Source: a phage
DNA: 1,271 nt
Sequence record: OR846114.1
Reading direction: 5' to 3' (one strand)
Part shown: piece by piece, positions 1 to 1,271 of the stretch
Position numbering within the stretch: position 1 is the first letter of the stretch
Layout: every line of letters begins with the position of its first letter
Translations under genes and position numbers: made by a program
Notes under the pieces: model-generated
The model's database searches: none
Told to the model about the DNA's origin: nothing
The model's input: the letters and a program-made list of their open reading frames with translations, nothing else

Positions 1-9
1 GCACGTAGC

Positions 10-60
10 TATCTTGTGCGGCAAGATAAAACAAGCGCTCTTCTGGGCGCTTGTTTGCTT
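10..60 (+). other. Two tandem hairpins; the second is followed by a T-rich tract (terminator-like, possibly bidirectional)
   Basis: Hairpin 1 is TATCTTG (10-16) / CAAGATA (22-28) with a 5-nt loop. Hairpin 2 is AACAAGCGC (30-38) / GCGCTTGTT (47-55) with an 8-nt loop, followed by TGCTT on the plus strand and preceded by AAA, which gives a T-tract on the minus strand. Seen directly in the sequence; function inferred. Confidence 0.3.
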
Positions 61-123
61 ATGGAGAGAGTCCACAGATGCTAATGCATAGCAGGTCGGT
101 CTCAGCACCGAAGAAATAACAAA

Positions 124-147
124 CCTCGCACTCGCGGGGATTTTTTT
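124..147 (+). terminator. Rho-independent terminator-like hairpin followed by a T7 tract
   Basis: Stem CCUCGC (124-129) pairs with GCGGGG (134-139), 6 bp including one G-U wobble, with tetraloop ACUC, then A followed by TTTTTTT (141-147). The G-U wobble becomes a C-A mismatch on the minus strand, so the plus strand is the likely functional orientation. Confidence 0.45.
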
Positions 148-177
148 CATATGAACTCGCTACGGCGGGTTTTTATT

Positions 178-181
178 GGAG
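178..181 (+). promoter_or_regulatory. Shine-Dalgarno-like GGAG for the 125-aa ORF
   Basis: GGAG lies 4 nt upstream of ATG 186 and 7 nt upstream of the in-frame ATG 189. The spacing favours 189 as the true start. Confidence 0.4.
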
Positions 182-185
182 ATAG

Positions 186-563
186 ATGATGGCAATGAAT
201 AAACGAGAAAAAGAACAACTTGAAAACGCTGTTCGCCTTATGGATATAAACCGATCGCTTAGATGGTCTGACTATGGAGCAGATCGCGATGTAGGCGTAC
301 CAGATAGCATCACCCAGTATGTTAACGGTTGGTCTATCAACACATATTCCTGCCGTGTATATAAATCATGGTCATCCACTGTATCTCATGGTGACGGATG
401 GGTTGAAAATGAAGAAAGACCCCGCTCCGCATCACAGAAAGGGATTGCGCAATACAGCACCAAAGAAAAGGCACTTAAAGCATTAAGGCATTGCATGGAA
501 ATGAAGTTTGCAGAAGCACTATACGAGATAGACCAGCAAATTCTCGCCACCGACGCGGAGTAA
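186..563 (+). CDS. Hypothetical protein, 125 aa, function unknown
   Basis: Open frame from ATG 186 to TAA 561-563, with alternative in-frame starts at 189 and 195; GGAG RBS at 178-181. Same strand as, and 96 bp upstream of, the excisionase-like gene. The translation is hydrophilic with predicted helical N- and C-terminal segments and a Trp/Tyr/Ser-rich middle. I see no Walker A, HExxH, CxxC pair or transmembrane segment, and I do not recognise the family. Confidence 0.6.
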   Translation: MMAMNKREKEQLENAVRLMDINRSLRWSDYGADRDVGVPDSITQYVNGWSINTYSCRVYKSWSSTVSHGDGWVENEERPRSASQKGIAQYSTKEKALKALRHCMEMKFAEALYEIDQQILATDAE

Positions 564-578
564 CAATGGAATCACACA

Positions 579-597
579 GCCTCATCGAGTGTGAGGC
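579..597 (+). other. Short hairpin in the spacer between the 125-aa ORF and the excisionase-like gene
   Basis: GCCTCA (579-584) / TGAGGC (592-597) with a 7-nt loop. There is no clear U-tract after it, so it is not called a terminator. Confidence 0.25.
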
Positions 598-646
598 CTG
601 TGCATTTCTCAAGATATCCCTTCCCTCCAAGTTCGATTCCCAAACC

Positions 647-650
647 GGAG
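647..650 (+). promoter_or_regulatory. Shine-Dalgarno-like GGAG for the excisionase-like gene
   Basis: GGAG lies 9 nt upstream of ATG 660. Confidence 0.4.
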
Positions 651-659
651 ATAAAACCT

Positions 660-863
660 ATGCGCGAATTACGCGATGACTCGCTTGTTGACTTGAAGTT
701 CATGATGGAGGATTCTGGAATGGGCAAGACCTTCATTTACTCAGAAATTAAGAAAGGCCGGTTGCCTGTCCCTCACAAAATCGGTAGCGCATCCAGATGG
801 GTTTATGCCGACTACCAAAACTGGAAACGCAGCCACTTCTCCCCTCTCCAAAATGCATCATGA
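660..863 (+). CDS. torI: AlpA/TorI-family winged-helix DNA-binding protein, probable prophage excisionase (recombination directionality factor), 67 aa
   Basis: Translation from ATG 660 is MRELRDDSLVDLKFMMEDSGMGKTFIYSEIKKGRLPVPHKIGSASRWVYADYQNWKRS... The block DSLVDLKF..GKTFIY..I..G.LP......RW.Y closely parallels E. coli KplE1 TorI as I recall it and the AlpA/Vis family signature. Size is typical for the family (about 65-70 aa). Stop TGA at 861-863. The GTG at 591 suggested by the ORF track would add a Pro-rich 23-aa extension with no RBS, so ATG 660 is preferred. The symbol is assigned by homology from memory and is unverified. Confidence 0.75.
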   Translation: MRELRDDSLVDLKFMMEDSGMGKTFIYSEIKKGRLPVPHKIGSASRWVYADYQNWKRSHFSPLQNAS

Positions 864-874
864 ATTGCCTTTGT

Positions 875-894
875 GGGCATAATTGCGGGCATAA
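875..894. repeat. Direct repeat GGGCATAA x2 with a 4-bp spacer (12-bp periodicity)
   Basis: GGGCATAA at 875-882 and again at 887-894, separated by TTGC, located between the excisionase stop and the att core. Seen directly; any role as a protein-binding site is inference. Confidence 0.3.
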
Positions 895-948
895 AACTCT
901 TCACTTCTGTAATTTCTTATAAATACCCTGCACTTACCATATTCATTA

Positions 949-968
949 GGTGTCTGCAGGGGACACCA
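949..968 (+). mobile_element. Candidate attR core: 3'-terminal fragment of a tRNA-Arg gene flanked by inverted repeats
   Basis: Positions 954-968, CTGCAGGGGACACCA, match from memory the last 15 nt of E. coli argW tRNA-Arg(CCU): T-stem 3' arm, acceptor 3' arm, discriminator A and CCA. Upstream sequence 894-953 has no T-loop, so this is a partial duplicate rather than a tRNA gene. GGTGTC (949-954) and GACACC (962-967) form 6-bp inverted repeats around the 7-bp TGCAGGG, which resembles core-type sites flanking an overlap region for a tyrosine integrase. Confidence 0.5.
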
Positions 969-1077
969 TTGATACCCAGGACATTCTCTTCTTGCTGCAT
1001 AGTCTTTCGAGCGGTTCCCCTTTCATGTTGCTTTTATTGCCCCTATGCAATATCACCGGACATGCCATACGTTCAGC

Positions 1078-1111
1078 AAAAAGTCGTCATCGGCCGGTTA
1101 TGACCGATGAC
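1078..1111 (-). terminator. Possible intrinsic terminator for the convergent outer-membrane protein gene
   Basis: On the minus strand, stem GTCATCGG (complement of 1104-1111) pairs with CCGATGAC (complement of 1086-1093) with a 10-nt loop, then GAC and TTTTT (complement of 1078-1082). It starts 14 nt downstream of the minus-strand stop codon. The stem is only about 50% GC. Confidence 0.35.
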
Positions 1112-1124
1112 ATCCCGATGTGGT

Positions 1125-1271
1125 CTAGAAGCGATACTGCAACCCCGCGGTAACCGTATAGTTATTATTAGCTATACCTGCGGCATCGCCACCAAAATAC
1201 GCCGTATCACCGCTGGTTTTATCTATGATTTGCGTACCGCCCTTACCTTCTTCATATTTACTGTAAGCGAA
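1125..1271 (-). CDS. Outer-membrane beta-barrel protein, C-terminal 48 codons plus stop (partial; 5' end outside the window), OmpX/Ail/Lom/OmpW-like terminus
   Basis: The minus-strand frame is open from 1271 down to stop TAG (complement of 1125-1127). The translated tail is [48 protein letters not shown]. The last 11 residues alternate hydrophobic and polar ([11 protein letters not shown]) and end in a terminal Phe, the classic final beta-strand signature of Gram-negative outer-membrane barrels (compare OmpX ...GVGYRF and OmpW ...AGYRF, recalled from memory). It is absent from the ORF track only because it has no start codon in the window. Confidence 0.6.

What the first reader, a model, noticed from the sequence alone, without database searches (positions are those of the whole stretch)
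660..863. TorI/AlpA-family excisionase homologue at the element's distal end
The 67-aa product has the AlpA/Vis/TorI winged-helix signature and, by my recollection, about half its residues match E. coli KplE1 TorI. In KplE1, TorI is the recombination directionality factor and also inhibits the TorR response regulator (established knowledge for that system). A divergent homologue in a different flanking context suggests a related but distinct tRNA-Arg prophage. Whether it retains a host-regulator moonlighting role is open.
Basis: partly seen in the sequence, partly recalled or inferred. Interest (0 to 1): 0.5.

Follow-up and report, generated by a model that had tools for sequence, protein, structure and literature searches.

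The report
TorI-type excisionase of a Salmonella prophage
The 67-residue gene is a real but ordinary relative of the E. coli excisionase TorI, sitting as the last gene of a P22-like prophage inserted in the Salmonella argW tRNA gene, where it most likely directs prophage excision.

Summary
Window 660-863 (+) encodes a 67-aa protein that matches TorI (PDB 1Z4H) at E 4.8e-15, with 31/59 identical residues. Its AlphaFold model (pLDDT 89.5) has TorI as the best PDB match. The gene lies 91 nt from the 16-nt KplE1 core CTGCAGGGGACACCAT (954-969), which includes the 3' end of argW. Phage homology stops there, and Salmonella DNA follows (pgtE, convergent).

The window is the attR end of a P22-like (Lederbergvirus) prophage. 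The protein is 100% identical to an unnamed ORF of phage vB_SemP_Emek and occurs in thousands of Salmonella assemblies.

In Emek/g341c the order is RDF-attP-int, as in KplE1/HK620. In attL of prophages with the Emek-type integrase, pentamers G(T/A)TC(G/T) sit at offsets 8, 18, 28, 71, 81 and 91 from argW. The mapped TorI sites of KplE1 sit at the same offsets.

So this is a diverged sub-type of the known KplE1/HK620 argW recombination module: RDF 53% and Int 62% identical, with different integrase arm-type repeats.

The Pfam AlpA profile is below threshold, but it is for TorI too. The 864-968 arm carries integrase-type repeats, not RDF-type sites. An anti-TorR role is untested and unlikely from residue comparison. 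Ordinary; low interest.

The parts
566..619 (+). Stub of a P22-type xis gene (first 18 codons, MESHSLIECEACAFLKIS). It marks a mosaic joint: the TorI-type module starts just after it.
   Evidence: Window 560-619 matches the eaC/xis junction and xis start of P22, ST64T, ST104 and SfV at 80-89%. Alignment with P22 xis shows identity ending at 619. PGAP calls the same stub an HTH pseudogene missing its C-terminus in E. coli E89. Many P22-like phages match window 1-619 and then diverge.
620..659 (+). Leader of the RDF gene. GTTCGATTCCC (631-641) and CGGAGATA (646-653, containing the SD GGAG at 647-650) are invariant in the window, g341c, HK620 and KplE1.
   Evidence: Four-way DNA alignment. The same block is present in Klebsiella aerogenes and Edwardsiella tarda loci and absent in Pantoea. 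No significant RNA structure (z = -0.02).
660..863 (+). RDF/excisionase gene, 67 aa, TorI family (winged helix).
   Evidence: 100% identical to an unnamed ORF of phage vB_SemP_Emek and 92.5% to g341c gp19. The exact protein is indexed in 7406 blocks of the assembly collection.
864..953 (+). Phage arm of attR (the P arm of attP).
   Evidence: Continuous with phage Emek/g341c DNA up to 968. Same length and layout as the KplE1/HK620 arm.
871..894 (+). Two direct 12-nt repeats, TTGTGGGCATAA and TTGCGGGCATAA. Presumed arm-type binding sites of the integrase N-terminal domain.
   Evidence: GYGGGCAYA occurs twice where 0.04 is expected. Further copies, direct and inverted, lie just upstream of int in Emek attP. 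KplE1/HK620 carry GGGTAAAAT-AGC-GGGTAAAAT at the same place. Binding itself is inferred.
954..969 (+). att core, CTGCAGGGGACACCAT. Positions 954-968 equal the last 15 nt of tRNA-Arg(CCU) argW.
   Evidence: Identical to the 16-nt duplicated core of KplE1 given in PMC2951348. Matches E. coli argW, KplE1 attL and attR, and HK620 attP. Phage homology ends at 968.
970..1124 (.). Salmonella chromosomal DNA beyond attR. It includes a terminator-like hairpin for the convergent pgtE gene (1085-1112, minus strand).
   Evidence: No match in phage genomes except mislabelled host-containing contigs. Terminator scan. Identical in Salmonella chromosomes CP194313.1 and CP089798.1.
1125..1271 (-). 3' end of the host gene pgtE (omptin outer-membrane protease), ending ...LQYRF*.
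   Evidence: The full ORF in L003 hits Pfam Omptin at 2.5e-131. The next gene has sigma-54 activator domains, as pgtA does. The order pgtE, regulator, histidine kinase, binding protein, MFS transporter appears in L006.

Best explanation
Window 660-863 encodes the recombination directionality factor (excisionase) of a P22-like prophage integrated in the Salmonella argW tRNA gene. It belongs to a diverged sub-type of the KplE1/HK620/Sf6 recombination module.

Shown here:
- The protein is a TorI homologue with a TorI-like winged-helix model.
- It is the last gene before attR.
- In the corresponding phage genomes the order is RDF, attP, int.
- The att core is the KplE1 core.
- In attL of prophages with the cognate integrase, direct pentamers G(T/A)TC(G/T) lie at 10-bp phasing in two blocks, at offsets 8/18/28 and 71/81/91 from the end of argW. 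The mapped TorI sites of KplE1 lie at the same offsets. The last pentamer abuts the -35 TTGACT of the int promoter.

Inferred, by analogy with TorI:
- On induction the gene is transcribed as the last gene of the N-antiterminated early-left operon. No promoter of its own was detected.
- The protein binds those attL repeats cooperatively through helix 2 and the wing, and bends the arm.
- It contacts the integrase through its C-terminal helix and so allows attL x attR recombination.
- It also represses the int promoter embedded in attL.
- The attR arm next to the gene (864-953) contributes integrase arm-type sites (871-894), not RDF sites.
For: - Homology to TorI: E 4.8e-15 and 53% identity. PHROG_66 excisionase, 2.2e-9.
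- Fold: pLDDT 89.5. Best PDB match is TorI 1z4h (TM 0.68, rmsd 2.7 A over 61 columns), then the GIsul2 excisionase.
- Purifying selection on the 67-aa frame.
- Family of 206 clusters across Enterobacterales, nearly all 65-67 aa.
- Identical protein in the isolated temperate phage Emek. Gene order RDF-attP-int in Emek, g341c and HK620.
- Core identical to KplE1.
- attL of prophages with 96-99% identical Int is tRNA-Arg(CCT) followed by the P' arm.
- Pentamers at the same offsets as the KplE1 TorI sites: six found where 0.65 is expected (site definition from PMC2951348).
- Most TorI residues needed for RDF activity are kept: S9, D12, F15, M17, Y28, P37, W48 (PMC3509656).
- All upstream genes in L006 lie on the same strand, from cIII/kil/erf down to this gene, and an N gene is present.
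Against: - No experiment exists on this protein.
- Three TorI positions where a substitution destroyed DNA binding or in-vitro excision differ here: F22 to M, R45 to A, A46 to S. DNA recognition may therefore differ in detail.
- The Pfam AlpA and NCBIfam profiles do not reach threshold.
- The RDF binding sites are not in the window. They were read from phage attP and from attL of other prophages, not from the genome that holds the window.
- Expression from the early-left operon is inferred only from gene orientation and the lack of a sigma-70 match.
Confidence: 0.85

Rival explanations
1. The protein is an RDF and also keeps a TorI-like second job: it inhibits the host response regulator TorR, or another OmpR-family regulator, in Salmonella.
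For: TorI does both jobs. IntS and TorR compete for the same C-terminal region of TorI (PMC3509656). Salmonella has a tor system (my own knowledge, not tested here).
Against: Every TorI substitution tested abolished anti-TorR activity. This protein differs at I16, F22, R45, A46, E55, F56 and N65, and at D35, H43 and C54. N65Y alone abolishes TorR binding. The C-terminal tail here (FSPLQNAS) is unrelated to TorI's LSRANG.
Confidence: 0.07
2. It is only an AlpA-like transcription factor that controls int or other prophage genes. It has no architectural role in excision.
For: Weak AlpA and HTH-type profile similarity. Databases name it 'AlpA family / helix-turn-helix transcriptional regulator'. 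TorI does repress intS.
Against: The closest characterised relative is required for excision in vitro with purified components. Multiple phased sites span the whole P' arm, not only the promoter. This is the only excisionase-like gene left in the module, because the P22-type xis is reduced to 18 codons.
Confidence: 0.05
3. The real product is the longer 87-93-aa ORF starting at GTG 591 or 600, as annotated in Emek, g341c and some NCBI records.
For: The frame is open from 591. Emek orf74 and g341c gp19 are annotated as 264 nt. Extended calls appear in P0001, P0006 and P0008.
Against: The extension is not conserved as protein across homologues and shows no third-position bias. It overlaps the xis stub and the conserved leader. 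TorI is 66 aa. GGAG lies 9 nt before ATG 660. Most family members, and the gene calls in complete genomes, are 65-67 aa.
Confidence: 0.03
4. It is a decaying remnant with no current function.
For: KplE1 itself is defective. An IS3-truncated copy exists in E. coli 1919D3.
Against: The ORF is intact and identical to that of an isolated phage. There is purifying selection. The neighbouring prophage in L006/L007 carries full lambdoid early functions.
Confidence: 0.02

Closest known systems
TorI of E. coli K-12 prophage KplE1/CPS-53 (identical proteins: HkaC of HK620, gp18 of Sf6); PDB 1Z4H
   Same: Same size (66 vs 67 aa), with 53% identity without gaps over 59 residues and the same predicted winged-helix fold. 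The gene is last before attR/attP, and int lies on the other side of attP. The 16-nt core in argW is identical. Two direct integrase arm repeats follow directly after the stop codon. RDF-type pentamers sit at identical offsets in the P' arm, and the last one abuts the int -35. The leader block GTTCGATTCCC...CGGAGATA is conserved.
   Different: About half of the residues differ, including wing residues R45 and A46 and the whole C-terminal tail. The partner integrase is only 62% identical to IntS. The arm-type repeat motif is GGGCATAA instead of GGGTAAAA. The host is Salmonella and the flank is pgtE instead of dsdC. A P22-type xis stub precedes the gene. Anti-TorR activity is unknown and is not supported by residue conservation.
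AlpA (CP4-57) / Pfam Phage_AlpA PF05930, COG3311
   Same: A small prophage-encoded HTH/winged-helix protein tied to integrase control and excision. Emek's annotators noted COG3311.
   Different: The score on PF05930 is 13.6 bits, below the 21-bit cut-off. The same is true of TorI (12.7 bits). No direct homology to AlpA was demonstrated here.
P22 Xis (116 aa) and lambda Xis
   Same: The functional role is the same: an RDF acting with a tyrosine integrase on phased direct repeats in an att arm. The host phage type (Lederbergvirus) is also the same.
   Different: No sequence match between them and this protein. In P22 and lambda, xis is adjacent to int on the same side of attP. Here only the first 18 codons of a P22-type xis survive (566-619), and the TorI-type gene has taken its place.

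Membership tests
TorI/HkaC RDF family (KplE1-type argW recombination module) | Significant full-length sequence similarity to TorI | tested here: met
   phmmer vs PDB gives 1z4h only, E 4.8e-15. BLASTP 31/59 identities, E 7e-21 pairwise.
TorI/HkaC RDF family (KplE1-type argW recombination module) | TorI-like winged-helix fold | tested here: met
   AF2 pLDDT 89.5, pTM 0.75. Foldseek PDB top hit is 1z4h, TM 0.68/0.69. This is a prediction, not a solved structure.
TorI/HkaC RDF family (KplE1-type argW recombination module) | RDF gene is the last gene before attP/attR and is separated from int by the att site | tested here: met
   Window: stop at 863, core at 954. Emek, g341c and HK620 all have RDF-attP-int.
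TorI/HkaC RDF family (KplE1-type argW recombination module) | Core CTGCAGGGGACACCAT at the 3' end of argW | tested here: met
   Exact at 954-969. attL of prophages with the cognate Int starts with tRNA-Arg(CCT).
TorI/HkaC RDF family (KplE1-type argW recombination module) | Phased RDF sites (GTTCG/GATCG/GTCCG type) in the int-proximal arm, overlapping the int promoter | tested here: met
   Emek attP and L212 attL carry pentamers at offsets 8, 18, 28, 71, 81 and 91. KplE1 has them at 8, 28, 71, 81 and 91 (site definition). These sites are not in the window and were not examined in the window's own genome.
TorI/HkaC RDF family (KplE1-type argW recombination module) | Conservation of residues required for DNA binding and RDF activity | tested here: inconclusive
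   Kept: S9, D12, F15, M17, Y28, P37, R47, W48. Changed: I16 to M, F22 to M, R45 to A, A46 to S (against Table 1 of PMC3509656).
TorI/HkaC RDF family (KplE1-type argW recombination module) | Protein is required for excisive recombination | not testable with these tools
   Needs an in vivo or in vitro excision assay.
TorI as response-regulator inhibitor | Binds TorR and blocks tor operon activation | not testable with these tools
   Only indirect evidence: 7 of 14 single-substitution positions that abolish the activity differ, and the C-terminal tail is unrelated.
Pfam Phage_AlpA (PF05930) | Score at or above the gathering threshold (21 bits) | tested here: not met
   13.6 bits, E 0.064. TorI itself scores 12.7 bits, so the profile does not cover this clade.

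The most novel reading that the evidence does not exclude
The Salmonella-clade protein may be more than an RDF. Like TorI, it could bind a host response regulator (TorR or another OmpR-type protein) through its remodelled C-terminal helix. That would couple prophage induction to host anaerobic-respiration control in Salmonella.

A second, independent possibility concerns the invariant leader block. That block copies the argW T-arm: 16 nt are identical to argW in KplE1/HK620, and 10 nt of it (within the 11-nt block GTTCGATTCCC) in the window. It could be a functional operator that lets the RDF regulate its own gene.
Probability: 0.08. Interest if true: 0.5.

Novelty: new member of a known kind. 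Interest (0 to 1): 0.17.

Why it matters
The practical value is annotation. In phages Emek, g341c and NM-3 this ORF is labelled 'hypothetical protein'. In Salmonella genomes it is labelled 'HTH/AlpA family regulator'. It can now be named the RDF of the argW recombination module, and the right prophage boundary can be placed exactly at 954-969.

Biologically, this is a natural second version of the well-studied KplE1 module. It uses the same attB and the same RDF-site geometry. Its integrase is 62% identical, its arm-type sites have changed, and its RDF has a different wing and tail. That makes a convenient pair for asking which parts of an RDF and an integrase set partner specificity. It would also show whether co-resident argW elements, including the P4-like satellites seen in tandem, can cross-excise each other.

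None of this would surprise a specialist.

Tried and rejected
- NCBIfam returned nothing for the protein, and Pfam only a sub-threshold AlpA hit. I did not count this against homology, because TorI fails the same profile.
- PADLOC gave a weak mad1 hit (18.7 bits, E 3.9e-4). I read it as generic small-HTH similarity. There is no defence-system context, so I rejected it.
- Rfam in E-value mode found nothing below E 0.2.
- Folding the RDF leader (585-675) as RNA gave z = -0.02. I dropped the idea of a structured leader or a sequestered Shine-Dalgarno.
- The sigma-70 scan found no promoter in the window, so no dedicated RDF promoter can be proposed.
- The IHF consensus WATCARNNNNTTR has no match in the 864-953 arm at one mismatch or fewer. 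IHF sites there remain unassigned.
- The RDF-type pentamer GWTCG occurs 5 times in the window against 4.4 expected, and never in 864-968. I therefore rejected the idea that the adjacent arm is the RDF target.
- Two genome contigs pattern scans did not help. The 44-nt Emek P'-arm pattern found nothing among species representatives. attL was obtained from IMG/VR instead, through the integrase.
- Literature searches found no paper describing this Salmonella variant or the recombination modules of Emek or g341c.

Full report
**1. What is in the window**

The 1271-nt window is 100% identical to two Salmonella enterica chromosomes, CP194313.1 and CP089798.1. Its left part (1-968) matches P22-like phages of the genus Lederbergvirus. 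Phage vB_SemP_Emek matches at 97% over 115-968, and g341c, NM-3 and S.Inf 5-2 match over 556-968. Many further P22-like phages match only over 1-619. Every phage match stops at 968.

From 970 onward the sequence is chromosomal. On the minus strand, 1125-1271 is the 3' end of an omptin gene (Pfam Omptin, 2.5e-131 for the full ORF in L003). A sigma-54 activator follows it, then a histidine kinase, a binding protein and an MFS transporter. This is the pgtE/pgtABCP region.

**2. The observation**

ATG 660 to TGA 863 encodes the 67 aa MRELRDDSLVDLKFMMEDSGMGKTFIYSEIKKGRLPVPHKIGSASRWVYADYQNWKRSHFSPLQNAS.

- Against every PDB chain, the only hit is TorI (1z4h), at E 4.8e-15.
- BLASTP gives 31/59 identities without gaps.
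- Against the g341c orthologue, 17 of 24 nucleotide differences are at third codon positions.
- Some annotations use an upstream in-frame extension (GTG 591/600, giving 87-93 aa). That extension is not conserved as protein and shows no codon-position bias.
- GGAG lies 9 nt before ATG 660. The family is almost uniformly 65-67 aa long.
- An AlphaFold2 model built on 49 family members has mean pLDDT 89.5. Its elements are a short strand, helix 12-19, helix 23-31, hairpin 39-48 and helix 49-60.
- Foldseek against the PDB puts TorI first (TM 0.68, rmsd 2.7 A). The GIsul2 excisionase and MerR-type winged helices follow.
- Pfam Phage_AlpA is below threshold (13.6 bits against a 21-bit cut-off). TorI itself scores 12.7 bits, so that profile simply does not reach this clade.
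- PHROG_66 'excisionase and transcriptional regulator' hits at 2.2e-9.

**3. The att site**

Panis et al. give the duplicated core of KplE1 as the 16 nt CTGCAGGGGACACCAT (PMC2951348). That string is exact at window 954-969. Its first 15 nt are the 3' end of argW.

The gene therefore ends 91 nt before the crossover region, and the window holds attR.

Directly after the stop codon lie two direct 12-nt repeats, TTGTGGGCATAA and TTGCGGGCATAA (871-894). The motif occurs twice where 0.04 is expected. Further copies, two direct and one inverted, lie just upstream of int in Emek attP. KplE1 and HK620 carry GGGTAAAAT-AGC-GGGTAAAAT at the equivalent position. These look like integrase arm-type sites whose motif has changed together with the integrase. 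Emek Int is 62% identical to HK620 IntS.

**4. The module in related sequences**

In Emek and g341c the order is RDF, a doubtful 47-aa ORF that spans attP, the core, and then int, all on one strand. HK620 has the same order: hkaC, hkaB, attP, int.

IMG/VR prophage contigs that encode an integrase 96-99% identical to Emek's carry tRNA-Arg(CCT) ending 163 nt upstream of int. This confirms argW-attL-int for this sub-type.

In that 166-nt P' arm, G(T/A)TC(G/T) pentamers lie at offsets 8, 18, 28, 71, 81 and 91 from the tRNA end. About 0.65 such pentamers would be expected by chance. KplE1 has GTTCG/GTCCG/GATCG at 8, 28, 71, 81 and 91. Those are the mapped TorI sites I1-I5: two blocks, the second next to the -35 of PintS, where I4 and I5 mediate repression. 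In Emek the last pentamer likewise abuts TTGACT.

So the RDF-site geometry is kept position for position, although the RDF is only 53% identical.

**5. Mechanism**

Established for TorI (PMC3509656, PMC2951348):
- It is required for excisive recombination.
- It binds five sites on attL cooperatively.
- It contacts IntS through its C-terminal part.
- It represses intS.

Inferred here:
- The Salmonella protein does the same on its own attL.
- The attR arm next to the gene supplies Int arm sites.
- The gene is expressed as the last gene of the N-antiterminated early-left operon. Every gene from cIII through erf and abc2 to this one is on the same strand in L006 and an N gene is present. No sigma-70 match exists in the window.

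Residue check against the TorI mutagenesis table (mapping):
- Kept: S9, D12, F15, M17, Y28, P37, R47 and W48.
- Changed: I16 to M, F22 to M, R45 to A and A46 to S.
- The last three changed positions gave proteins inactive in vitro when mutated in TorI. Details of DNA contact may therefore differ. The loss of the wing arginine is specific to the Salmonella sub-clade, which reads GSASRW where most relatives read GR(T/S)SRW.

**6. Moonlighting**

All TorI substitutions recovered in the screen abolished anti-TorR activity, and N65Y abolished TorR binding. This protein differs at 7 of the 14 single-substitution positions. Its tail is FSPLQNAS, against LSRANG in TorI. I could not test binding. I put retention of a TorR-type function at under 10%.

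**7. Family and novelty**

A profile search returns 206 clusters (at 90% identity), all in Enterobacterales. They include Salmonella, Klebsiella aerogenes, Citrobacter, E. coli TorI, Cronobacter, Pantoea, Erwinia, Edwardsiella and Serratia.

Loci from Klebsiella aerogenes, Pantoea agglomerans and Edwardsiella tarda share one layout. The RDF is the last phage gene, two direct arm repeats follow the stop codon, and an argW-type core lies about 90 nt downstream.

The exact 67-aa protein is indexed in 7406 blocks of the assembly collection. It is identical to an Emek ORF annotated 'hypothetical protein; COG3311'. I found no paper on this variant.

It is a new, uncharacterised member of a known and well-described module type. 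It is not a new kind of system.

**8. Verdict**

The corrections are these:
- The AlpA profile does not support the call; direct TorI homology and the fold do.
- The RDF's DNA targets should be sought in attL rather than in 864-968.
- The gene replaces a P22-type xis, of which an 18-codon stub remains at 566-619.

Interest is low.

Noticed in passing
window 566-619: The first 18 codons of a P22-type xis gene (MESHSL..EACAFLKIS) survive as a stub just upstream of the TorI-type gene. Homology to P22, ST64T, SfV and phage 29485 ends at 619. The same stub precedes lambda-type xis-int modules in phage 29485 and E. coli E89, where PGAP calls it an HTH pseudogene. It behaves like a recurrent mosaic boundary in front of interchangeable integration modules.
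   Followed up: yes
window 580-596: Inside the stub, the window and phage 29485 read CCTCA-TCGAGTG-TGAGG. P22 reads CCTCA-CACTTGA-TGAGG and g341c reads CCTCA-CACTCGA-TGAGG. The window's loop is the exact reverse complement of the g341c loop, and of the P22 loop but for one base. This is a small inversion between 5-nt inverted repeats, and it changes TLD to IEC in the dead reading frame.
   Followed up: partly
window 631-653; L013 (KplE1) and L005 (HK620) upstream of torI/hkaC; L018, L021: The leader block GTTCGATTCCC...CGGAGATA is invariant between the Salmonella and E. coli sub-types, although their coding regions are only about 55-60% identical at the DNA level. In KplE1 and HK620 the block extends to TTGCAGGTTCGATTCC, 16 nt identical to the argW T-arm. 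In Edwardsiella it forms a near-complete T-arm hairpin (ACAGGTTCGATTCCCTGT). It contains the RDF-site pentamer GTTCG. Its function is unknown: it could be an operator, a relic of an older att site, or a translation signal. No RNA structure signal was found (z about 0).
   Followed up: partly
L008-L011, about 10295-20204: In other Salmonella genomes the same RDF/attR core is followed not by pgtE but by a second integrase and a P4-like satellite (Ogr/Delta, Psu, primase-helicase, and in L011 its own AlpA-like gene). argW is thus occupied in tandem by a P22-like prophage and a satellite.
   Followed up: partly
window 186-563: A 125-aa ORF lies upstream of the RDF. It matches PHROG_28248 (unknown function, 4.9e-72) and has no Pfam, NCBIfam or PADLOC hit. 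It is shared with many P22-like and Stx phages. A terminator-like hairpin with a T-run precedes it (124-139).
   Followed up: partly
window 873-1103; L001 4737-4880: The 47-aa 'gene' annotated in Emek, g341c, HK620 (hkaB) and Sf6 (gene 17), which matches PHROG_18701, runs across the integrase arm repeats and the att core. In the prophage it continues into host DNA as a different 76-aa ORF. It is probably an annotation artefact of the attP region rather than a gene.
   Followed up: partly
L003 (OR851279.1) and OR850878.1: GenBank records labelled 'Salmonella phage S.Kent 1-2-1' (UNVERIFIED_ORG) are assembly contigs. One contains the host genes pgtE and pgtA beyond attR, so it is prophage-plus-chromosome DNA rather than virion DNA.
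   Followed up: no
L004 6001-6292 (E. coli 1919D3): A copy of this Salmonella-type RDF (91.5% DNA identity) sits at the E. coli argW/dsdC attR. An IS3 element has truncated it at its 5' end. The sub-type therefore also circulates in E. coli.
   Followed up: no
L167 1338-1503: A prophage with a 90% identical integrase at argW has a different P' arm. There the pentamers appear as reverse complements (CGAAC, GAACG) and at other offsets. This suggests a further sub-type with a rearranged RDF-site layout.
   Followed up: no
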